A DNA stretch of 61,746 bases, the filler included, from Globobulimina sp. (lineage: Eukaryota): assembly GCA_003354225.1 (NCBI GenBank). It is 19 parts of 19 records of this genome, joined end to end, with 100 filler letters (N's around TTAATTAATTAA, not from the genome) between each part and the next. Parts side by side here need not be neighbours in the genome. Positions count along the whole stretch, not along the records: positions 16,292 to 19,448 come from PIVH01003562.1; 18 more parts are not named here. One strand, written 5' to 3'. Below, piece after piece: positions 3,264 to 36,738 of this stretch. The position numbers were made by a program, and so were the translations under genes. The number at the start of each line of letters is the position of its first letter. Positions within the stretch are counted from its first letter, which is position 1. The notes below the pieces were generated by a model. It searched no databases, had not been told where the DNA came from, and was given only the letters and a program-made list of their open reading frames with translations.

Positions 3264-6200
3264 ATGGACGAGGATGCCAAAGAAAATAAAGAAAGCAAAC
3301 AAAACGACTACACCCAAACGCCCCAACATTCGCCCACCGCTTCTGGCGGCTATTTTGGCCGAGAATCCACCCGCAGCGAAATTATACATTCGCTCGAGCA
3401 GCACCATGGAATTTTGAATTTATTTTTTCAGGATTTATCCCGTTATATGAGCGCGTATAACCCGCATGTACAGGAACACAAAGCCGAAGGCGATGGGGAT
3501 CGCAGCACAGTGCTTCCGCGGCAAATTGTCAATTTCCGCGCGAGATTTGATTTCCTGCGCTTTATACTGCAATACAGCTCCTTGCGATTAGCGAGTAAAC
3601 AATTGGACGATTTGTGGAACATTGTGATTGGAGACACCTTGAAAACGGACTATTCCATCCCTTATACGTACAAATTGGAACAAAATTACTTTTTCAAGTG
3701 GTTGAAGGACATCTGTCCACCGTTAGCTTCTCACGGCAATAATAATGCAAACTATTCGCCTGCCATTTCTGTGGACGATGCGGTGAATTTATTCCATGCT
3801 AAATTAGGCTCCATGCCGCGCAAAACAATGACCTCGGATTCGTTGCAATGCCTGCACCAATATTTCGACCTCGTGTACGAACTCGCCACAAAAAAGTCTG
3901 CCACGTCAGGCGTCACTGCGCATCCTGACTTGTCCGCGGCGTTGGACGTGATGTGGGAGATTGCCATTGAGGCAGAAACAGATACGGTAGCACAGTCATG
4001 CGGGGTCTTTATATTGTCGTTTTATATGAAACCTGCAGTGCACCAGAATCATATTCAAGCGCAGACTGCAAATATACAGAATAAAGTGAGTGACAATATA
4101 TTAAATTTAATTAACAACGCCGCTGCCAAGACGACTAACACCACTGCCACTGCCACGGGCGCTGCCTCTCAACCGCCTGTATTGATAAATAAGTGGGAGG
4201 GCAGGACCAATTTTGTAGAGAAGTGCATGGATTATATCCAGCAACAATCCATTTGCTCAAACTTCCGGGCAGTGCATCGCTGTTTGGATTTGCTGGAGAC
4301 ATTTATCGAATGTACACGTCCCGGCGTGATGCGAGGGGAAATACACTCGGATAATGGCACTAATAATGACTTGAATGGGTTTGGGGATGAAAGTAGCAGT
4401 GATTCTGTCATTTACATGGGCAATAATTCCGGTATGTGTTCATTTTAATATTTGTGTTTAACCATTGTTTTATTTCGTACTTTTTTGTAGGAAGTGGCGG
4501 TGCTGGTACTACCGGACTGAGTGCCAGTGATTTTAAGAAAACGTCGCCATGGGATTTGGGCCGCTATGCGCTGAAATATTGGAAATTACCCATCGGATTG
4601 AACCATTTTATAAAGATAAATGTCAGTAACTTGCAAATGCAAAAAGATACCAAAAACTTTAACATTATGATCAATAAGTTTTCGCGCGTTGGAGAGTTAC
4701 AAGATTTAATTGCGGCGATCTTAAATCAGGATAAGGGTTTGTTGCAAATGCAAGCAAATAATAATGTGTCGCTGACGCCGCAAATCGAAGCAAATACGTT
4801 GGAATCATGCAATTTGAGGGACGGCTGTACCATTACAGTGATGAGCATTTTTAGTTTGCAGAACGATCAAAATAATAATTTATTAGTGCCGGATGGCGCT
4901 TTTATTTTGAGTCAAAATAGGTTTTATATTGAACTTTTGTTGGAGTTGTTAAACAAACGAGGAAATAATGGTAACTTATTTAGTCGGTTATGGAATTTGT
5001 TAATGAGATTGCCATTCAATTTGCAAGTCTTGGCATCGTTGAAAGATATTGTTGGGTATATACAATCGGACGATAATAACAACAAAATTATTACCAACAA
5101 TGTGAATTGGAATTTGTTCATTGACGCTTCCAGCACATTCAAGTTGTTGTATTCGTTGCAAGTGTTCGATTCGGTGCTGCAGCATTGTAATAGTTCGTGG
5201 CTGGATTCCTTTATGACGTTAAACGGTATGTTGTTATATTCAGACAAACAAATTAGTATACAAATGGATTGTTTGTGAATTGTGATAGGTTTGCAACATT
5301 TGTATCATACATTAATCAATTTTCAATTTGATTATACGGATAATGTGTTTACGTACGCGTCCTATAGAGCGCTGTATATGTTATTTAAGATATTTTCCAG
5401 TTTAACCAGTCATGAATTGATCGAAAGTGATCCCTTATATACACGCTGTAAGCCGCGACATAATACGCCCAAAATAATAAAAATACGCTCTGTGAGTGGC
5501 ACATTATCTAAATTCAATCACAATGAGTTAGATATATTGAAATTAGGCACCAAAATATTTGAATTGATTCTCGAAATCTTGAAACAAATCGAGAAGAATG
5601 ATAGTCGCAACAATTCCGCTGGCAACCCATTGTTGGCTGAAATTGTTGAATTGGCATTGTACCAATTCATTGCATTGTTATTCTGTTACAGCTCCCGTTT
5701 AACACCGTTATTTGATGGAAGATATCAACAACAATCGTTACAAAGTGATGGCAAGGCCTGCAATGTGAATTGGATCAATTTGGTGTCTTCGAGTCTGTTT
5801 TGCAGCGATAAGTTAATCCGGAAATGTGTAGTTAAACATTTATACCAAATCTTTGTAAAATATAATCCCGACGCCACTGCCTCGCAAAAGCTACATCATA
5901 AAACATTAGAATTATTATACAGCGAATTAGAAAAATGTAAATTAAATTTTTCGCGACATTTTATGTGTGTCGAATACTTTGAATTTTACGGTTATGTCAT
6001 TAAGTATTACTGCAAAAATGTACTGTATTTCGACCCAACGTCTTACAATCAAAGTTTGCGCTATTTTGAAGGCGCGCCGTTGCAGTATGCCTGGAATGCA
6101 TTGAAAACTTATCGTGGATTGGAAACCCGACATAGTGACCGGACGGATGAGTATTTGTTAGGTTTATTGAAGCTTTTATGTTGTATTATTGTGGGATTTC

Positions 6201-16291: not shown

Positions 16292-18008
16292 AAAGCTGTT
16301 GCAGTGTCAGGCTGTAATGGCAATGTATCCATAAACGTTTCATCTGTTGGCGTGAAAAATGCTGTACTGAATTGTCGTTTGATGCTGTTAATACTTGACA
16401 TTTTTTGACGAAATGCCTGCTGTTCCTGTACTTGTAAAGTCAATGCTAATGAAGTATGACCAGGACTGATATCACTAGTTTTATAAAAGAAAATAGATTC
16501 ACCAACTTTGATATTTTGTAATGTTACAATCCATCCAATATTAAGAAAATCAGCGTGTAATTGAGTTGTGACTTGATCACAAACGTTGAATGGTATAAAT
16601 TTGGTATGAAAACAAAACTGAATTTTTACAAATGACGTTGATGATTGAATTGCATATGACGACAAATTATGATATAGAAATTTTGTGATTGTTTCTGAAA
16701 ATGTAAATTTGTTTGGTAGATACATTTTTACTTCCTTCAAATTATAGAACATTTTGCTCAATAGACTCATATCTAACATTGTATATGATTTATCCATACA
16801 CATTCCATGAAACTCGTTTTGGAATCGCACCATATCAACAACAACACGAATAACTTTACTGCAGCGGAAATTAAATAAACCATAAATATATTCTGGTATC
16901 GATTTATCTTTCACACTTTGATCACATTGATATTCGATAAGAGATGCTAATATTTTGATTTTGTCTTTCTCATTTTCAACAAAACTCTGTTGATTGCGAA
17001 CTGCTGCAAAAAAACATTCCATTGACGATATAGAGGCTTTATAATCATCAAATCCATTCTCATTTGTGTCGCTCATAACATTTATATTTTTGATTCTCAA
17101 CGCAGCAAAACCACCAATTAATAGAAACTCCTGTTCCATCGGGTAATTACTTAAAAAACAATCAAAATAAAATGCATTTTTTACATGCTTTCCAATCTCA
17201 AAAACCATTCCGCTATGACCTAACATATGAGCAAAATATGTATACATTGGAATATTATTTAGAGGAACATATTAACTTAACCAGCAAATCGAGCAGCTAC
17301 TAATAGGCTTTTCGTTGTTGACGTAGGAGCATAGAATCTTGCTATCATTTTGGCGAAATACAATGGACGATCAATCCCATGATATAATGTCACGGTTTTA
17401 TCAAATAATGCAGTACCAAATACTTGCACAGTTTCTCTGAGTAACCTACCAAAATGATAATAATGGCTGTGTCTGCACTTAAATTCATCATCGGATTCCT
17501 TGGCCAATCGACGATACGTAGAAGAAAAAACTCTTTGTAACTCATCAGTGTTACAATAGAATAAAATAGAGAGTAAGTGATGCATCGTAATCTGTATATT
17601 TTCTTTGATTTCATATTGACGCTGAAACGCATTATTGGATCGCAATGATTTCACTCTATTGTCGGTTTCTAGTCTATCCCTTGCATTTTGATACTCATTG
17701 TGCCACATAATTGGACCAACTTTACATAAATCGTTACACAATAATTCCTCTTTGAGATTTGTATATTTCTTGGGAATGAACCATTTGTGATGTCGATAAT
17801 AATTCCAATAAAAAAAACCCTGACCAAAATTATATGCTTCGTTTTCCTTCGTTTCTGCTTTTGGCATTACTTCCAGTGGTATGTTACGCGTAGTGTTTGT
17901 TTCATTTGTGATGAATCGATTTCTGCGTTGATCAGATAATAAATTGCGTTCATTTAATGGTTTCTTGGGAAGAGATGGCTTCTGGTTTTCAGTTTTAGGT
18001 TCAGCCAT
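16292..18008 (-). CDS. ADP-ribosyltransferase-like (ART-fold) protein; intron 17220-17281; 3' truncated
   Basis: Spliced product has LYHG ... PTSTTKSLLVAARFAGHSGMVFEI ... SNYPMEQEFLLIGG, the R/H - STS/STT - ExE arrangement of ARTC/VIP2-type ARTs. Confidence 0.7.
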
Positions 18009-18039
18009 GCCACTGATGTGCTGTCCAATGTTTTTATGC
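17943..18039 (-). repeat. Duplicated 5' module, copy A (upstream sequence plus first 22 codons of the ART gene)
   Basis: Near-identical to 19345-19448; encodes MAEPKTENQKPSLPKKPLNERN. Confidence 0.95.
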
Positions 18040-18131
18040 TCTCTGACTCAAAGGCTTGATGTTGGGGTTGTTCACAATGTCACTTGCAAATATCGACTTA
18101 TTTAAAGTTGTATATATAACATGGCGAGATA

Positions 18132-19410
18132 TTATACTGATACATAATTGGTGTTTCCTTCAAGCTGATTCATTTTATTTTGTGTTTCTTTCCTAATACC
18201 AATTGCTTTTAATATTTGTTTCCTATCAAAATGCTTCAAAATACCAATTTCCTTCAAATCCTCTGCATTTAAATCATATAAAGCCTCAACAGATTCATAT
18301 CCATTTTCAATGAACAAATCATAATATATTTCACAATTAATATCTTCCAAAAACAATCTCAAAATCTCCTGTTTTGACAATGTTTTATTATTTACATCCA
18401 ATGCAGCTATTTTAGCATTCATTTCATTCATCCTTTCTTTCATTTTACTCATTTCATCCATAATATCATTATCATCATTTTCCTTTTTCTCCTCCAATAA
18501 CTGCGTCAATTTATCATTCAACAATTTCATTGCTTCATCCTTTTGTTTATTAAACTGCAATAATTTTTGTATTGTATTATTCATTGCGTTTACGTCATTA
18601 CGCAACGCTTCAATCTTCCCATCATATTCAGTCATTTCTTTTTTCTGTTCATCATTAACATTAATATTATGATGAACCCATAAATAATTATGTTGTTTAT
18701 CCGATGATGGATATACTTTGCACACATTTTGTGTGTACAAATCCCGATCTTCCTGCTCAAAACAACAAAAAATAATACCCTGAATACTATCTAATAAACC
18801 AGCATCACCTAAGTCGCATAACCATGCTTTCACAGTCTCCAATGCTATGCAACATGCTGTGGATTTACTGAATGAACCAAAACCAGTTCCAATGCATGGA
18901 AATACCACAGTTCTAATACCATTTTCAATGCATAAATCTAAACTGGTCACATAACATGATTTCAAAAAATTATCTGAGTCACCTACACAGTGTATAATTA
19001 ATATTAAGTTACTGCAAACAATTTAATTTATAATTATATATAAAGTATTCTTAACGTGGTGGAACTGTATGTAACACGTATTTTGCTTTTAAATTAAATG
19101 CAGAAGTTATCACAGTTTGGCCAATTGGCACTTGATTGTTGCTTACTTTATCAGTGATTGCTTTACATTCTTGTTGCAATTTATCAGAACCGGCTTCGCG
19201 AAATAGCAGACCTGAAACACCTTCCGTTCCAGTGAGAGATCTGTTTGCTGGATTTACAATCGCTTCAACTCTCTCCACTGCGGTGACACTTCCATGATAT
19301 AAGAATACTTTTGATGCTAATTTATCAGCCAATTGTGGGTTGATGTTCCGTTCATTTAATGGTTTCTTTGGAAGTGATGGCTTCTGGTTTTCAGTTTTAG
19401 GTTCTGCCAT
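18132..19410 (-). CDS. Macrodomain + coiled coil + SAM-domain protein; intron 18983-19055
   Basis: EAIVNPANRSLTGTEGVSG, GQTVITSAFNLKAKYVLHTVPP and VFPCIGTG (macro); FLEDINCEIYYDLFIENGYESVEALYDLNAEDLKEIGI (SAM); 73-nt GT-AG intron restores the frame. Confidence 0.88.
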
Positions 19411-19448
19411 GCCGTGCCACTGATGCGTTGTCGAATGTTTTTATATGC
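19345..19448 (-). repeat. Duplicated 5' module, copy B (upstream sequence plus first 22 codons of the macro gene)
   Basis: Near-identical to 17943-18039. Confidence 0.95.
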
Positions 19449-20108: not shown

Positions 20109-22442
20109 TTATTGCTTATAGTGATAAAGTGATCGATCATTTTGATCTCTTTCTAAAAAGTCTTGATCTATTAATGAAAGAATACGTTTTTTGATGAGAC
20201 TAGGTTTTGGATTAAATCTTTGAATTAATTGCTTAACGACTTGTGTAATGAGGTCGCGATGCGACAACACCTTCCTTGTCTTCATAAGTCGAACAATGGC
20301 GGCATCCATTTGGTGTCTTCGCAATGTTAATATTTTGGGATCGATTTTATTCACATCAATGTTTTGATTCCTTTTTAACGATAAGATCGGAATAATTATT
20401 CTTGTTTTGGGGTTATTATAGTTTGGATTTATTTGAAATTTATGATTATCGCACAATTCCTTCGTATTTGGTGCCTTTCTTAAAATTCTAATCTTTGGAT
20501 GGGCCATACTTAAAACAGCAACTTGCAATTCGTCGCTTGGAATATTTGATAAATCCTTCATCTCTTTAAATGTGATGGTTTTCTTATTATTAAACAACAG
20601 CAATATTAGCATTTGATATGTAGAAACAACCAATGTTTTGCGTATGTTTGTATTAAATGCGACTTGTATGTCTGCTCTGCCTTTGTCCATTTGGTACCTT
20701 AGTTTCCTGCCACTAAATCTTGACAAATAATATGATTTAAACGCATCGCACACAACACCAAGCTCCGCGTACTGCATTTTAACAGGAATTATTGCCGCAT
20801 CTGGCCAGGCCCCGGTAGTACATATCGATACTTGTAATTCACATTCGTTTCCATTCGAATTCCAATTCATATTTCTCTCCCTAAACGAGTTAAATCCAGC
20901 CATTAATTCCTTTGATGTCTGAATGTCTTTAAACATATCTTCTAACTTACTCGTCCAGTAATATCCAGCATCATTTTTTAATTTGCCAATCATAGACCTT
21001 TCCGATTGTTCCGAAGAAGACAAATGTTGCAATAACCTGCTGGCTAAATAAAACTGATAATCCCTTTCGAAGATGTCTTTGTCGCTAATATAACCATATA
21101 ACATCACAACGTGATCCATTGTGCTCTCTAAGCTTGCACTTCTTGTCGATAATTTGCTTGTTTTCTTCAATAAGTCGTTGGCGTATCGCGCCAATAATGC
21201 AGACACATAATATTCTCTGTTTATAAACGTTTCAAATGCTTCTTTCAATGCTGTATGAAATATTCCTTCTGACTCAAGCTCAGTGTTGACAATATTTAAA
21301 AATCTATCATGCAAATTAATTAATTGCGCGATCAATTCATGTGCATCTGTGTTACTTTTCGATTTCTCAATAAAAGTATCTCCCAAATTCGTGATATGTA
21401 CACATAGCGCTTCCGCAATTTTATGGTTTCCAGCTGGTACTGACGAATATAATCTGTGTGCTGTGGATAACTCTTCCTTTGCATACTTTGCATCGGTACC
21501 AATGGTTCTATTTAAAATGGAATGAATTCCAGACTTTTTCACGAATAGCAATTCATTTTGATGCACATTTAATATTTCTTCCCTCACTGCATTCATTAAA
21601 CCACTCTCTGAATATTTGTCAATGTACACAGCTAAACGTAACTGTTCATTCGTGATGCAGTTCTCTGCAAATCTTAAATACTTTGGACATGATAAAACAT
21701 CTAATTGTGCTCTACTTTTCTGTTTATAATATTGTTTTGTTTCAGAAAGCAAATATTTATCAAACTCATCCTTGTAAATTGACAATTCGACTTTTTTTAA
21801 TTTGTTTCCTAATTCCACAAATACCAAAATCGAGTCACGTAATAAATCTCTATCTTGTTCTTCATCATTTCGTTCCTTTTCAATGCAGTGTAATATGGCT
21901 TTTCTCGCGGTTTCTTTAAATTGTTCAAATATTATCTCTCTGTACAGTGTATATGCTCTATTGGTGGTATTTAATAAATTGTCACTATTTGGCACATAAA
22001 ACCTATCCAAATACATAAACATTCGCCTCATTCCAATGACATTCCATTTGTTATATTTCCATCGTTTTTTCCATTCTTTTAAGGAAACGTTTGTTGATTC
22101 GTTTTTTTTGCATAATAATGATGGGATAAATTTGTTTCTGTATTGGTCAGTTAATGCTAATGAATGTTTCTCATACAGTTTGGATGAAAAATTATATGGT
22201 TCTCGCTGCGTACACAATGTAAATATGGTGTCGTACACTTCAATGTATTGTTGGGTATCAATGGATATTTTCTGCAGTTTATCCTCGTTATCCATACTTT
22301 CTACTCTTTCGAAAAATGGTTGAATGCCTACTGTATTTATTTTATTCCATCCTTCCGTGAATTGAATAGTTTTTGCTTTACCATCGCTTGATTTGGTCTT
22401 CTTTTTTGATGACCGCTTCTTTTTTTTACGTCTTTTGCTCAT
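20109..22442 (-). CDS. Cullin (CUL1-like), intronless
   Basis: FMYLDRFYV, DKDIFERDYQFYLASRLL, TSKLEDMFKDI, neddylation motif MDAAIVRLMKTRK, C-terminal LIDQDFLERD. Confidence 0.95.
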   Translation of the reverse strand: MSKRRKKKKRSSKKKTKSSDGKAKTIQFTEGWNKINTVGIQPFFERVESMDNEDKLQKISIDTQQYIEVYDTIFTLCTQREPYNFSSKLYEKHSLALTDQYRNKFIPSLLCKKNESTNVSLKEWKKRWKYNKWNVIGMRRMFMYLDRFYVPNSDNLLNTTNRAYTLYREIIFEQFKETARKAILHCIEKERNDEEQDRDLLRDSILVFVELGNKLKKVELSIYKDEFDKYLLSETKQYYKQKSRAQLDVLSCPKYLRFAENCITNEQLRLAVYIDKYSESGLMNAVREEILNVHQNELLFVKKSGIHSILNRTIGTDAKYAKEELSTAHRLYSSVPAGNHKIAEALCVHITNLGDTFIEKSKSNTDAHELIAQLINLHDRFLNIVNTELESEGIFHTALKEAFETFINREYYVSALLARYANDLLKKTSKLSTRSASLESTMDHVVMLYGYISDKDIFERDYQFYLASRLLQHLSSSEQSERSMIGKLKNDAGYYWTSKLEDMFKDIQTSKELMAGFNSFRERNMNWNSNGNECELQVSICTTGAWPDAAIIPVKMQYAELGVVCDAFKSYYLSRFSGRKLRYQMDKGRADIQVAFNTNIRKTLVVSTYQMLILLLFNNKKTITFKEMKDLSNIPSDELQVAVLSMAHPKIRILRKAPNTKELCDNHKFQINPNYNNPKTRIIIPILSLKRNQNIDVNKIDPKILTLRRHQMDAAIVRLMKTRKVLSHRDLITQVVKQLIQRFNPKPSLIKKRILSLIDQDFLERDQNDRSLYHYKQ

Positions 22443-22885: not shown

Positions 22886-24577
22886 CTATTTATTATCTTC
22901 GAAAGATATCTTTGAAATGCTTTCTAAACTTTCATTGCTTTGCGATTCACCTAAATGTCTTTCATTTCGTTGTATAATTTTATATATTTTCTGCATTGTT
23001 TTAGTATGTTTTGTTTGAATGATATTTATAAAATTAATGCATGCGCACTGTTCATCAATATCAAACATATCACTTTCTTTTAAATTTATGAATTCATCGC
23101 GATCTATTAACTCTTTTGCAGTGGCGCGATTTAAAAGGTTTATTTCTAAACATTTTGCTATAAATGTATTGATATATTGGTTATCCATTTGAGGGATTTT
23201 AATGTCCTCAACATTAGTTTTTAACATTTCAGAGTATTCCCTTGGTTTTACATCATAATATATTGGTTGACATGTTAGCATTTCTATAGTGGTAACACCT
23301 AAACTCCAAATATCGTGAGCATATAAATCAGATGGCGATGTACATGCTCTTTGAAATATTTCTGGCGGCATCCAATGCACTGTTCCTCCCACACATTTCT
23401 TAGCATTTTTTATCTCTTTTACGAAAACACAAGACCCAAAATCTGCTAATTTTATATCATTTGATGCGCAGATCAATATATTCCGCCCTTTAATATCACG
23501 ATGAACAATTTGTATCGAATGCAAATATTTTATTGCAGATAGTAATTGTTTTACATATTTCCTGGTTGTAATTAGATCCAATCTGCCAAACTGTTTTAAT
23601 ATTTGCGATACGTTGCCGATATTACAATATTCCATAAACATTAAGATAGAATAATTACAAACAGCAGAACCGTAAAAGTTTACAATGTTTGGATGATTTA
23701 AATCCACTAAAATCTTCATTTCATAATAAATTGATTTGCATTCTTTAGTTGGAATGTTCTGTCCATTGTCATCAATTTCGAAATTGGCACGTTTTACAGC
23801 GTATAATTTCACATTGGCCGCATCTAATTTGCACGCAGTGAATGATGCATCGTCACTTAAAATTATTTCTTTTATTAATTGAGTCATTGTTTGTTTTTGT
23901 TTTGGTTGCGATTGCACATATTTTAGCATTGGCTTTTGCTCCAAATCTATGCATAAGTGAACATAGCCAAATCTACCTTTACCTAATAAGTCGCTTAACA
24001 GCCATCGTCTGGTCGGGGATGTTATAGATTGTGTTGTCTCTATAATATAATCGTCATAAATATTTGGAATATTTGCAATGTTGGAACACAAAGAATTATT
24101 CACATTATAATTAATTAATGATGGACTGCTAAATGGTTTTTGTCTTTGTATTGTATTATAAACTGATAATTGATTTATATCAATTCTTAACTCATTCACA
24201 TTATTATTTGTATTATTTGTAAGATTTATGTTGTTGTCTGATGAAAACACGTAAATCAATGCAAACACTAACAATAATATTATAAAAATGCAAATAAGTC
24301 CGAAAGTAATCCATAAAATATGTAACCAGTGGTTGTCTAATGTATTTCGCAAACTATAATCCAATTCCTGATCGCAAGAATCTGCGAGACTGTCATTTGC
24401 AAAAAACAAAAAATCGCCACTTTCACTTGACTCGTGATCGTGATCGCTATCATGTGCAGCAGGAAACACATGGACAAAACCCATGGTAGTCGGCGAGTGT
24501 AATACGCCGCTTTTAGTTATTCCTGATCCATTCTTGATGGCGACACAGATAGTTAGGAATAAATTAATCAGCAGCAT
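22886..24577 (-). CDS. Ser/Thr kinase, STE/MAP3K-like, with putative signal peptide and one TM helix
   Basis: LGKGRFG, YAVKR, HPNIVNFYG, HRDIKGRNIL, KLADFG, GTVHWMPPE, DIWSLG; hydrophobic N-terminus and segment ILWITFGLICIFIILLLVFALIYVF. Confidence 0.88.
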   Translation of the reverse strand: MLLINLFLTICVAIKNGSGITKSGVLHSPTTMGFVHVFPAAHDSDHDHESSESGDFLFFANDSLADSCDQELDYSLRNTLDNHWLHILWITFGLICIFIILLLVFALIYVFSSDNNINLTNNTNNNVNELRIDINQLSVYNTIQRQKPFSSPSLINYNVNNSLCSNIANIPNIYDDYIIETTQSITSPTRRWLLSDLLGKGRFGYVHLCIDLEQKPMLKYVQSQPKQKQTMTQLIKEIILSDDASFTACKLDAANVKLYAVKRANFEIDDNGQNIPTKECKSIYYEMKILVDLNHPNIVNFYGSAVCNYSILMFMEYCNIGNVSQILKQFGRLDLITTRKYVKQLLSAIKYLHSIQIVHRDIKGRNILICASNDIKLADFGSCVFVKEIKNAKKCVGGTVHWMPPEIFQRACTSPSDLYAHDIWSLGVTTIEMLTCQPIYYDVKPREYSEMLKTNVEDIKIPQMDNQYINTFIAKCLEINLLNRATAKELIDRDEFINLKESDMFDIDEQCACINFINIIQTKHTKTMQKIYKIIQRNERHLGESQSNESLESISKISFEDNK

Positions 24578-36669: not shown

Positions 36670-36738
36670 TGTCTTATGAGATATTTTTATGATACAAAAC
36701 AGATAAGGGCATAAAAATAAGAGTGTGATCCAAAGAAA

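What the first reader, a model, noticed from the sequence alone, without database searches (positions are those of the whole stretch)
17943..19448. Two unrelated proteins share an identical 22-aa N-terminal tag that differs only at synonymous sites
Seen: both genes begin MAEPKTENQKPSLPKKPLNERN. The 66-nt copies differ at 5 positions, all synonymous (GCT/GCA, TCT/TCA, CCC/CCA, CGC/CGG, AAT/AAC). About 30-40 nt of upstream sequence is also homologous, with substitutions and indels. The differences make an assembly duplicate unlikely. Established: KPxLPxKP resembles PxxP SH3-ligand motifs. Inference: a portable promoter + docking-tag module under purifying selection that co-expresses and co-localises the ART and macro proteins. 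Five sites is a small sample.
Basis: partly seen in the sequence, partly recalled or inferred. Interest (0 to 1): 0.78.

Follow-up and report, generated by a model that had tools for sequence, protein, structure and literature searches.

The report
Macro gene's start copied onto neighbouring ART-like gene
Two neighbouring genes of an AT-rich eukaryote, one a MacroD-type ADP-ribose hydrolase-like gene and one a probable ADP-ribosyltransferase, really do share their upstream flank and first 22 codons, most likely because the start of the macro gene was duplicated onto a truncated copy of the other gene and the short peptide was then kept by selection.

Summary
On one 3157-base contig (16292-19448; the window is 19 unrelated contigs joined by spacers), two same-strand genes begin with the same 22 residues. 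61 of the 66 bases match, all 5 differences are synonymous, and about 35 upstream bases are also homologous.

Five-of-five synonymous has P of about 0.0002-0.001 under neutrality.

The tag belongs to the macro-SAM gene. A 46%-identical relative, P0004, aligns from residue 2 and carries a diverged form of it, and P0020 keeps the PxLP core.

The ART-like gene's three relatives instead have an unrelated N-terminal region of 128-171 residues. Their homology to our protein starts only at codon 25 or later.

My reading is therefore a chimeric gene. A partial duplication placed the macro gene's flank (TATA-like and TCAGT motifs), short leader and 22 codons onto an N-terminally truncated ART paralogue 123 bases downstream, and the peptide was then conserved.

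"Portable module on many genes" is not supported. SH3 docking and co-localisation remain inference. ART identity is probable but unconfirmed: Pfam, PDB and the fold prediction gave nothing.

The parts
19411..19448 (-). 5' flank of the macro-SAM gene, cut off by the contig end. It contains TATAAAA and TCAGT and is homologous to 18009-18041.
   Evidence: family D2: 34 nt, 88% identity; contig end. The RNA?-contig X6 record 16 begins at 19411.
19345..19410 (-). Tag copy B: codons 1-22 of the macro-SAM gene. This is the native copy.
   Evidence: The homologous N-terminus in P0004 aligns from residue 2.
19056..19410 (-). Macro-SAM exon 1: the tag followed by the N-terminal two thirds of a MacroD-type macro domain.
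   Evidence: Pfam Macro E 1.3e-15. MACROD2 aligns from query residue 24.
18983..19055 (-). 73-base GT..AG intron of the macro-SAM gene.
   Evidence: The joint 'skips 73' appears in one contig each of runs X5, X6 and X8 (table 5). The frame was checked.
18132..18982 (-). Macro-SAM exon 2: the end of the macro domain, a low-complexity/coiled-coil-like stretch, a SAM domain and the stop codon. The spliced protein is 401 aa.
   Evidence: Pfam Macro, SAM_1 and SAM_2. PDB matches to MACROD1 and Caskin-1 SAM..
18009..18131 (-). 123-base spacer between the macro stop codon and the ART ATG. The proximal ~35 bases (18009-18041) are the duplicated flank, with ATAAAAA and TCAGT.
   Evidence: A related contig (X8 record 19) stops matching at 18111.
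17943..18008 (-). Tag copy A: codons 1-22 of the ART-like gene. This is the acquired copy.
   Evidence: Homology to the ART family (P0001-P0003) starts only at 17936 (codon 25) or later.
17282..18008 (-). ART-like gene exon 1: tag, short linker, conserved helical region, then the YHG and TSTT motifs.
   Evidence: The Atlas gives ART-named clusters at scores 0.92-0.94.
17220..17281 (-). 62-base GT..AG intron of the ART-like gene. This is inferred from the open frame and is not confirmed by RNA.
   Evidence: P0002 ends at the same position and P0001 stops aligning there.
16292..17219 (-). ART-like gene exon 2: the EQE motif followed by about 270 residues of unknown domain. The frame stays open to the contig end, giving at least 549 aa.
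   Evidence: No Pfam, PDB or Atlas assignment was obtained.

Best explanation
The shared module is the footprint of a partial gene duplication that created a chimeric gene.

The donor is the macro-SAM gene, which encodes a MacroD-type macro domain, a coiled-coil-like stretch and a SAM domain. Its family natively begins with a short, disordered, Lys/Pro-rich N-terminus of the form MA[SE]xK...[KS]PxLP...L.

The segment copied comprises its proximal flank (TATA-like box and TCAGT initiator-like motif), a very short leader, a strong-context ATG (GGCATGGC) and 22 codons. This segment was joined in frame to a paralogue of an ART-like family, exactly where that family's own N-terminal region of 128-171 residues ends. 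The recipient thereby lost that N-terminal region. It now sits 123 bases downstream of the donor on the same strand.

The most economical route is a tandem duplication of the macro gene followed by a deletion that fused the second copy's start to a downstream ART gene. Ectopic recombination would give the same result.

Since then, synonymous sites in the 22 codons have diverged substantially while no amino acid has changed. The peptide is therefore translated and functionally constrained in both proteins.

Inference: it is a short linear motif with a PxLP core (PSLPKK fits SH3 class II) that gives a probable ADP-ribose writer and a MacroD-type eraser or reader the same address or partner. The copied flank would give them similar basal transcription.

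What is shown: homology, junction, direction of transfer, and the synonymous-only pattern. What is inferred: promoter function, docking, and any writer-eraser relationship.
For: - The tag copies match at 61 of 66 bases and all 5 differences are synonymous. P is 0.00025-0.0013 under neutral substitution, with 13.3-13.7 synonymous sites among the 63 non-ATG bases.
- Read directly from the codons printed, 4 of the 9 fourfold-degenerate sites differ. The duplication is therefore old relative to the ~5% divergence from related contig X6.
- The macro gene as a whole tolerates change. Against X6, 18 nonsynonymous and 14 synonymous changed codons are listed out of 32. By my arithmetic (14/32)^5 is 0.016, so the tag is more constrained than its own gene.
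- Direction of transfer: of 3056 hits at E <= 0.001, the best representative hit P0004 (E 1.4e-27) aligns query residues 2-118 to its residues 2-119. It carries a collinear, diverged tag with 7 of 22 residues identical, including M1, A2, K5, P11, L13, P14 and L18. P0020 has KPHLPQ.
- The MACROD2 match starts at residue 24, immediately after the tag.
- Recipient: 3 of 3 database relatives of the ART ORF (P0001-P0003, 54-65% identity) carry a different N-terminal region. Their tblastn homology to the window starts at 17936, 17933 and 17846, which is their residues 129, 167 and 172. No trace of that region is found elsewhere in the window.
- The junction is therefore sharp: macro-derived up to codon 22 and ART-derived from codon 25 at the latest.
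- In a related lineage the macro copy keeps the tag. X6 record 16 covers 19411..19054 with one synonymous change (K10) and one change at the last tag residue (N22S) among the differences listed.
- Flank motifs are described. Two other ORFs of the 26 surveyed (>= 200 aa) have a TATA-like box at -28, one of them also with TCAGT at -12. This suggests short leaders recur in this genome.
- X6's contig begins 1 base before the ATG.
Against: - The sample is five sites in 22 codons from a single gene pair.
- Three of X6's 19 differences in exon 1 are not shown, so further changes in the tag of that relative cannot be excluded.
- Across deeper macro relatives the tag is poorly conserved (7 of 22 identical with P0004). 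Any function may therefore be lineage-specific or limited to PxLP.
- The ART protein has a second in-frame Met at residue 48, ahead of all family-conserved sequence. A tag-less product is therefore possible.
- No run on record as RNA holds the locus. The runs used for the intron are only guessed to be RNA.
- Promoter elements were identified by consensus only. The conserved CATCAG|TGGC could equally be a splice or trans-splice acceptor.
- ART identity is unconfirmed. There is no Pfam hit even at E <= 10 and no PDB hit. The AF2 model has mean pLDDT 37. The position expected to hold the family's Arg is His in ours, P0001 and P0002 (aligned by eye).
- A 98%-identical contig under the same organism label (X8 record 19) stops matching at 18111, 21 bases past the macro stop, and continues for 79 bases unlike the window. 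The ART gene may therefore not follow the macro gene in every copy or haplotype.
Confidence: 0.7

Rival explanations
1. Portable promoter-plus-tag cassette. The ~100-base module is a mobile or repeatedly reused unit placed in front of several functionally linked genes to co-express and co-target them.
For: The flank and the coding start were copied together. The peptide is conserved. Unitigs of run X1 break inside or next to both copies (records 4/5 and 7/8), which could mean further similar sequences exist in the read set.
Against: There are only 2 matches in the 61.7 kb window. A 40-aa N-terminal query against longer proteins found 5 word-sharing candidates, none at E <= 10. A degenerate DNA pattern for residues 2-11 hit 1 metagenome contig, and that hit is a GC-rich bacterial low-complexity repeat. 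The tag is collinear with the native N-terminus of macro relatives. All of these searches cover this lineage poorly, and the whole assembly was not available.
Confidence: 0.1
2. Neutral relic. The 5' duplication happened as described, but the peptide has no function of its own in the ART protein. The synonymous-only pattern would then be chance, or would reflect constraint on the macro copy combined with past gene conversion. The ART gene might be translated from Met48, or might be a decaying copy.
For: The sample is small. A downstream in-frame Met48 lies ahead of the conserved region. The tag is weakly conserved in distant macro relatives. Contig depth over the ART gene in X6 is low at 2.3-2.5, against 10.5 over the macro gene. 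itself warns that this is a poor measure.
Against: P(all 5 synonymous) is at most 0.0013. Differences have accumulated at 4 of 9 fourfold sites, so recent conversion cannot explain the amino-acid identity. The ART frame is open for at least 549 codons across an intron to the contig end, and family motifs are intact. The ATG context is strong in both genes.
Confidence: 0.13
3. The constraint acts on nucleic acid rather than on the peptide. The 100 bases would be a transcriptional or translational control element, for example a downstream promoter element, a leader structure or an mRNA localisation signal, that happens to overlap the start of both ORFs.
For: Upstream non-coding bases are at least as conserved (30 of 34) as the coding part (61 of 66).
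Against: A nucleotide-level element would not restrict all differences to synonymous third positions, four of them transversions at fourfold sites. The deeper macro relatives keep amino-acid features (PxLP, MA.xK) in the same register.
Confidence: 0.04
4. Assembly artefact. The contig would be a mis-join through a repeat, or a collapsed or duplicated assembly error.
For: The assembly is a low-coverage draft of ~3 kb contigs. The contig ends 38 bases upstream of one copy.
Against: The copies differ at 5 coding positions, 4 flank positions and a 5-base indel. Each copy runs uninterrupted into its own distinct ORF. The longest exactly shared run, about 29 bases, is shorter than the unitig word. 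An independent unitig (X1 record 5, 17916-18167) spans the ART tag, the spacer and the macro 3' end with 0 differences. This unitig comes from the probable source reads.
Confidence: 0.03

Closest known systems
Chimeric genes born by partial duplication and fusion (Drosophila jingwei and Sdic are the textbook cases; recalled, not checked in a paper here)
   Same: A 5' segment of one gene, comprising regulatory flank, start codon and first codons, is joined in frame to the body of an unrelated gene. The junction is sharp and the parent gene survives next door.
   Different: The captured coding part here is only 22 codons. It looks like a short linear motif rather than a domain. The two partners belong to opposing activities of one modification pathway.
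Macro-domain / ADP-ribosyltransferase pairings: macroPARPs (PARP9/14/15) in one polypeptide, and bacterial DarT-DarG and sirtuin-macro operons as adjacent genes. The PARP9 macro domain abstracts were seen in the listing; the rest is recalled.
   Same: A macro domain and an ART-type enzyme are genetically linked, as adjacent same-strand genes here. This suggests a writer paired with an eraser or reader.
   Different: The two are neither fused nor in an operon of a prokaryote. Here they are two eukaryotic genes with introns. The ART-like part is not PARP-type, and its motif layout resembles the cholera-toxin-like clade. The link is a shared N-terminal peptide, which is not described for those systems to my knowledge.
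Human MACROD1 / MACROD2 ADP-ribose glycohydrolases (PDB 2x47, 4iqy)
   Same: The best solved-structure matches cover both halves of the macro domain (E 1.1e-11 and 7.6e-12).
   Different: In the MACROD2 alignment, its GVDGCIH reads GVSGLLF here, with Asp replaced by Ser and His by Phe. This protein also has a C-terminal coiled-coil-like stretch plus a SAM domain, and a 22-residue N-terminal tag in place of MACROD's longer N-terminal region.
Class II SH3 ligands, PXXPX+ (PMC3658277, Introduction passage read)
   Same: P11-S-L-P14-K-K16 fits PXXPX+.
   Different: The basic residue is not kept in the homologous segments of P0004 or P0020. No SH3 partner is known and nothing was tested.

Membership tests
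Chimeric gene from partial duplication | The 5' segment is homologous at DNA level to a neighbouring parent gene. | tested here: met
   61 of 66 coding bases and 30 of 34 flank bases are identical.
Chimeric gene from partial duplication | The remainder of the gene belongs to a different family whose members have another N-terminus, with a sharp junction. | tested here: met
   P0001-P0003 homology starts at codon 25 or later, corresponding to their residues 129-172.
Chimeric gene from partial duplication | The shared segment is ancestral in the donor family. | tested here: met
   P0004 aligns from residue 2 with a collinear diverged tag. P0020 keeps KPHLPQ.
MacroD-type macro domain | Significant match to the Pfam Macro model and to MACROD1/2 structures. 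| tested here: met
   Pfam PF01661 scores 57.9 and 30.6 bits against a cutoff of 22. PDB E-values are 1.1e-11 and 7.6e-12.
MacroD-type macro domain | The Asp and His of the GVDGxIH stretch, proposed as catalytic in MacroD1 (recalled). | tested here: not met
   The stretch reads GVSGLLF in the alignment to MACROD2. The protein could therefore be either a hydrolase or a reader.
Cholera-toxin-like (R-S-ExE) ADP-ribosyltransferases, Pfam PF01129 / PF03496 | Match to the family profile. | tested here: not met
   There were 0 Pfam families for either exon or for P0001/P0002, even at E <= 10. The domain is split by an intron and the spliced protein could not be submitted. The Atlas gave ART-named clusters at 0.92-0.94, 7 of 30 hits in sets carrying PF01129, but the recognition score of 1767 is low. 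This is a lead only.
Cholera-toxin-like (R-S-ExE) ADP-ribosyltransferases | The Arg, Ser-x-Ser and Glu-x-Glu motifs in order and with family-like spacing. | tested here: inconclusive
   By eye the sequence reads LYHGI ... PTSTT ... MEQEFLL, with about 20 and 44 residues between the motifs. His stands where Arg is expected in ours, P0001 and P0002. The expected spacing is recalled from rat ART2 and was not checked.
Cholera-toxin-like (R-S-ExE) ADP-ribosyltransferases | ART fold. | tested here: inconclusive
   The AF2 model of exon 1, from a 4-sequence alignment, has mean pLDDT 37 and pTM 0.29. It is unusable and no fold search was run.
SH3 class II ligand | PXXPX+ core. | tested here: met
   PSLPKK is present in both copies. 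The pattern is taken from PMC3658277.
SH3 class II ligand | Motif conserved in relatives; binding to an SH3 domain. | tested here: not met
   P0004 has PTLPQT and P0020 has PHLPQS, both lacking the basic residue. Binding is not testable here.
Portable multi-gene cassette / repeat | Present in front of more than two unrelated genes. | tested here: not met
   There are 2 copies in the window, 0 in the protein collection, and 1 chance hit in metagenome contigs. The whole assembly is not held, so this test is weak.

The most novel reading that the evidence does not exclude
The 22-residue peptide is a transferable address. By capturing the macro-SAM protein's N-terminal PxLP motif together with its core promoter, a cytosolic ART-like enzyme was wired to the same partner or site as the MacroD-type enzyme next door. 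The result would be a co-targeted ADP-ribosylation writer-eraser pair in an animal-like eukaryote, a eukaryotic two-gene analogue of macroPARPs or DarT-DarG, built by shuffling a short linear motif rather than a domain.
Probability: 0.2. Interest if true: 0.65.

Novelty: new member of a known kind. Interest (0 to 1): 0.42.

Why it matters
It is a clean, datable example of a new gene head being made by copying a promoter-proximal flank plus a short linear motif. Donor, recipient and junction are all identifiable, and there is a selection signal on the copied peptide.

If the peptide is a docking or address motif, it would show how opposing enzymes of one modification pathway can be brought under common targeting by a 100-base duplication. 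It would also give a small, directly testable handle (22 residues) on the partners of an uncharacterised ART-like family and a macro-SAM family.

If the peptide has no such role, this is an ordinary chimeric gene.

Tried and rejected
- **Whole-genome search.** This was not possible because no genome is held.
- **Tag searches in public data.**
  - The 22-aa query was too short.
  - The 40-aa N-terminus against longer proteins gave 5 candidates, none at E <= 10.
  - Macro exon 1 against near-length proteins gave 3 candidates and none significant.
  - The degenerate DNA pattern in metagenome contigs gave 1 locus (L001). That locus is a GC-rich bacterial contig with a low-complexity repeat and was rejected as chance.
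- **Prokaryotic relatives of the ART region.** 290 pattern matches were found, and none was a relative by tblastn.
- **ART identity.**
  - Pfam at E <= 10 found nothing for either exon or for P0001/P0002.
  - PDB phmmer gave only two weak IgG-protease hits at E 0.058 and 0.91, rejected as chance.
  - Exon 2 gave none and the profile of A2 gave none.
  - The AF2 model of exon 1 had pLDDT 37, so it was not used and no fold search was run.
  - The Atlas search for exon 2 gave a best score of 0.88 with unnamed clusters and no assignment.
- **RNA evidence.** No RNA holder is listed for the locus. X6 and X8 are only guessed to be RNA. ART coverage in them is partial (16877-17089 and 17597-17806 in X6) and does not reach the tag.
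- **Upstream extension.** X1 record 8 runs 90 bases past the contig end, but its letters are not shown. The extent of the duplicated flank therefore stays open.
- **MAFFT placement of the tag.** MAFFT aligned the tag against 'TKEIKEILIQKLLDQIHLF' of P0001. I reject this as an alignment artefact, because tblastn homology starts only at codon 25.
- **Other motif readings, considered from memory and dropped.** These were a 14-3-3 mode I site, a classical NLS, and a signal or transit peptide. The peptide has no hydrophobic core, and the required basic positions do not fit.
- **Literature.** The search 'bdelloid' + 'ADP-ribosyltransferase' returned 1 paper, with no relevant passage. The search 'rotifer / ADP-ribosyltransferase / macro domain' returned nothing on such a pair among the 15 papers listed. 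I found nothing in print about a shared N-terminal tag on ART and macro genes in those searches.
Full report
**1. Context**

The window is not one stretch of genome. It is 19 pieces of 3151-3159 bases, sorted by length and joined by N44-TTAATTAATTAA-N44 spacers.
- The finding lies wholly within one piece, 16292-19448, which has 33% G+C.
- No whole genome is held for it.
- The genes have short GT..AG introns, so the source is a eukaryote.
- The nearest named Atlas clusters for the ART-like protein are commonest in Rotifera, which is a lead only.

**2.

On the minus strand, an ORF starting at 18008 and an ORF starting at 19410 both begin MAEPKTENQKPSLPKKPLNERN.
- The 66-base copies differ at five third-codon positions, and all five differences are synonymous.
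- Upstream, 30 of 34 aligned bases agree, with a 5-base indel beside the ATG.
- The macro-side flank is cut off after 38 bases by the contig end.
- A 32-base pattern from the tag finds just these two places, against none in 100 shuffles.
- Simulated neutral substitution gives P(all five synonymous) of 0.00025-0.0013.
- Reading the printed codons, 4 of the 9 fourfold-degenerate sites differ, so the copies are not young.
- Both ATGs are the first in-frame start after an in-frame stop, and both sit in GGCATGGC.
- Unitigs of run X1 reproduce both copies and the spacer with no differences. X1 is probably the source sample, so this shows only that a second assembler agrees.

**3. Gene models**

*Gene B (macro-SAM)*
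- Exon 1 is 19410-19056.
- The 73-base intron at 19055-18983 is skipped in one contig each of runs X5, X6 and X8.
- Exon 2 is 18982-18132, and the protein is 401 aa.
- Pfam finds Macro across both exons and SAM_1/SAM_2 near the C-terminus.
- The best solved relatives are MACROD2 and MACROD1 for the two halves, and Caskin-1 for the SAM domain.
- The MACROD2 alignment starts at residue 24, directly after the tag.
- In that alignment MACROD2's GVDGCIH reads GVSGLLF here. Whether the protein hydrolyses or only binds ADP-ribose is therefore open.

*Gene A (ART-like)*
- Exon 1 is 18008-17282.
- An inferred 62-base intron lies at 17281-17220.
- Exon 2 starts at 17219 and stays open to the contig end, giving at least 549 aa.
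- The 123 bases from 18009 to 18131 separate gene B's stop codon from gene A's ATG.

**4. Which gene owned the tag**

*The macro family owns it*
- I searched 1.84 billion representatives with macro exon 1. This gave 3056 hits at E <= 0.001.
- The best hit, P0004 (E 1.4e-27, 46% identity), aligns query residues 2-118 to its residues 2-119.
- Its N-terminus is a collinear, diverged version of the tag. M1, A2, K5, P11, L13, P14 and L18 are kept, which is 7 of 22.
- P0020 has KPHLPQ at the same place.

*The ART family does not*
- The ART ORF has three relatives in the 5.8-billion collection, P0001-P0003, at 54-65% identity.
- All three carry a different N-terminal region that ours lacks.
- By tblastn their similarity to the window begins at 17936, 17933 and 17846, which corresponds to their residues 129, 167 and 172.

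The ART-like gene is therefore macro-derived up to codon 22 and ART-derived from codon 25 at the latest. The donor is the macro-SAM gene, and the recipient is a truncated ART paralogue.

**5. Selection**
- A ~95% identical relative contig (X6 record 16) covers the macro gene from 19411. Among the differences listed, it has one synonymous change in the tag (K10) and N22S at the tag's last residue.
- Over the whole gene, 14 synonymous and 18 nonsynonymous changed codons are listed.
- Against that gene-wide ratio, five of five synonymous has a probability of about 0.016 (my arithmetic).
- Three of X6's exon-1 differences are not displayed, so the tag count in that relative is a minimum.

The tag is therefore more constrained than the gene it heads, and it has been constrained on both genes since the duplication. 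The sample is small.

**6. The flank**
- The shared upstream bases hold TATAAAA (macro) or ATAAAAA (ART), starting about 35 and 29 bases before the ATG.
- Both also hold TCAGT, whose A lies about 11 and 6 bases before the ATG.
- Of 26 ORFs of 200 aa or more in the window, 4 have a TATA-like word within 70 bases upstream. Three of these are at -28/-29, including the ART gene. One of the others also has TCAGT at -12.
- X6's contig begins one base before the ATG.

This fits a core promoter with a very short leader. It rests on consensus only, and CATCAG|TGGC could also be a splice acceptor.

**7. What the ART-like gene is**

Evidence for an ART:
- Atlas clusters named NAD:arginine ADP-ribosyltransferase score 0.92-0.94.
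- By eye, the order LYHGI ... PTSTT ... MEQEFLL resembles the cholera-toxin-like layout.

Evidence against, or missing:
- There is no Pfam match even at E <= 10.
- There is no PDB match by sequence or profile.
- There are no prokaryotic relatives.
- The AF2 model is unusable, with pLDDT 37.
- The C-terminal ~270 residues are unassigned.
- The domain is split by the intron, and I could not hand the spliced protein to the profile or fold tools.
- His stands where the family's Arg is expected, in ours, P0001 and P0002.

I therefore call it a probable ART.

**8. Mechanism**

*Shown*
- A partial duplication carried the macro gene's flank, start and 22 codons onto an ART paralogue, replacing that gene's N-terminal region.
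- The two genes are adjacent on the same strand.
- The peptide is conserved.

*Inferred*
- The peptide is a short linear motif with a PxLP core.
- In this lineage PSLPKK fits the SH3 class II pattern PXXPX+ (PMC3658277, Introduction passage). The basic residue is missing in P0004 and P0020.
- The motif may give both enzymes a common partner or location.
- Neither protein has a hydrophobic N-terminal signal, so both are presumably intracellular.

**9. Rivals**
- A portable multi-gene cassette is not supported by any search I could run. Those searches cover this lineage poorly.
- A neutral relic is disfavoured by the substitution pattern, but it cannot be excluded from five sites.
- Constraint acting on the nucleic acid rather than the peptide does not explain why all differences fall at third positions.
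- An assembly artefact is unlikely, given the differences, the indel and the distinct downstream ORFs.

**10. Open points**
- A 98%-identical contig (X8 record 19) stops matching at 18111 and continues differently. Another copy or haplotype may lack the ART gene at this position.
- The extent of the duplicated flank beyond 38 bases is unknown.
- No run on record as RNA holds the locus.

**Verdict**

The feature is real, and the explanation is of a known kind: a chimeric gene formed by partial duplication. A credible but small-sample selection signal supports a functional N-terminal motif shared by a probable ADP-ribose writer and a MacroD-type partner. Interest is moderate.

Noticed in passing
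window 1-61746: The window is 19 contigs of 3151-3159 bases, sorted by length and joined by N44-TTAATTAATTAA-N44 spacers. Apparent neighbours across a spacer are not genomic neighbours.
   Followed up: yes
window 18111 (minus-strand downstream of the macro stop at 18132): A 98%-identical contig of run X8, which carries the same organism label as the probable source, stops matching the window at 18111 and continues for 79 bases of unlike sequence. X5's contig stops at 18140. Another copy or haplotype of the macro-SAM gene may have a different downstream neighbour.
   Followed up: partly
window 18295-18327: A 33-base stretch inside the SAM-domain coding region matches several otherwise unrelated contigs in X5, X6 and X8 (3 differences each), some at high depth. 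Their flanks share a consensus on one side. It may be a conserved SAM-coding word of a gene family or a small repeat (tables 7 and 8).
   Followed up: no
window 17360-17385 and P0001, P0002: In this ART-like family, the motif that lines up by eye with the Arg of R-S-ExE enzymes reads YHG, with His, in all three sequences that cover it. This is reminiscent of the H of diphtheria-toxin-like enzymes, although the later motifs look cholera-toxin-like.
   Followed up: partly
P0001-P0003 residues 1-~130: The N-terminal region that our ART gene lost is conserved among its three relatives (Cys-containing start, DYxHIK, RHxRD, LLDQIHLFxYHP). It matches no Pfam family even at E <= 10.
   Followed up: partly
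window 4609-4636 and 36711-36738: Two other ORFs have a TATA-like word 28 bases before their ATG, one of them also with TCAGT at -12. This hints that very short leaders are common in this genome.
   Followed up: partly
window 20109-22442 and 22886-24577 (minus strand, other contigs): Two long ORFs look by eye like a cullin-type protein (777 aa) and a protein kinase with an N-terminal transmembrane segment (563 aa). They are ordinary eukaryotic genes on neighbouring but unlinked contigs. They were not searched.
   Followed up: no
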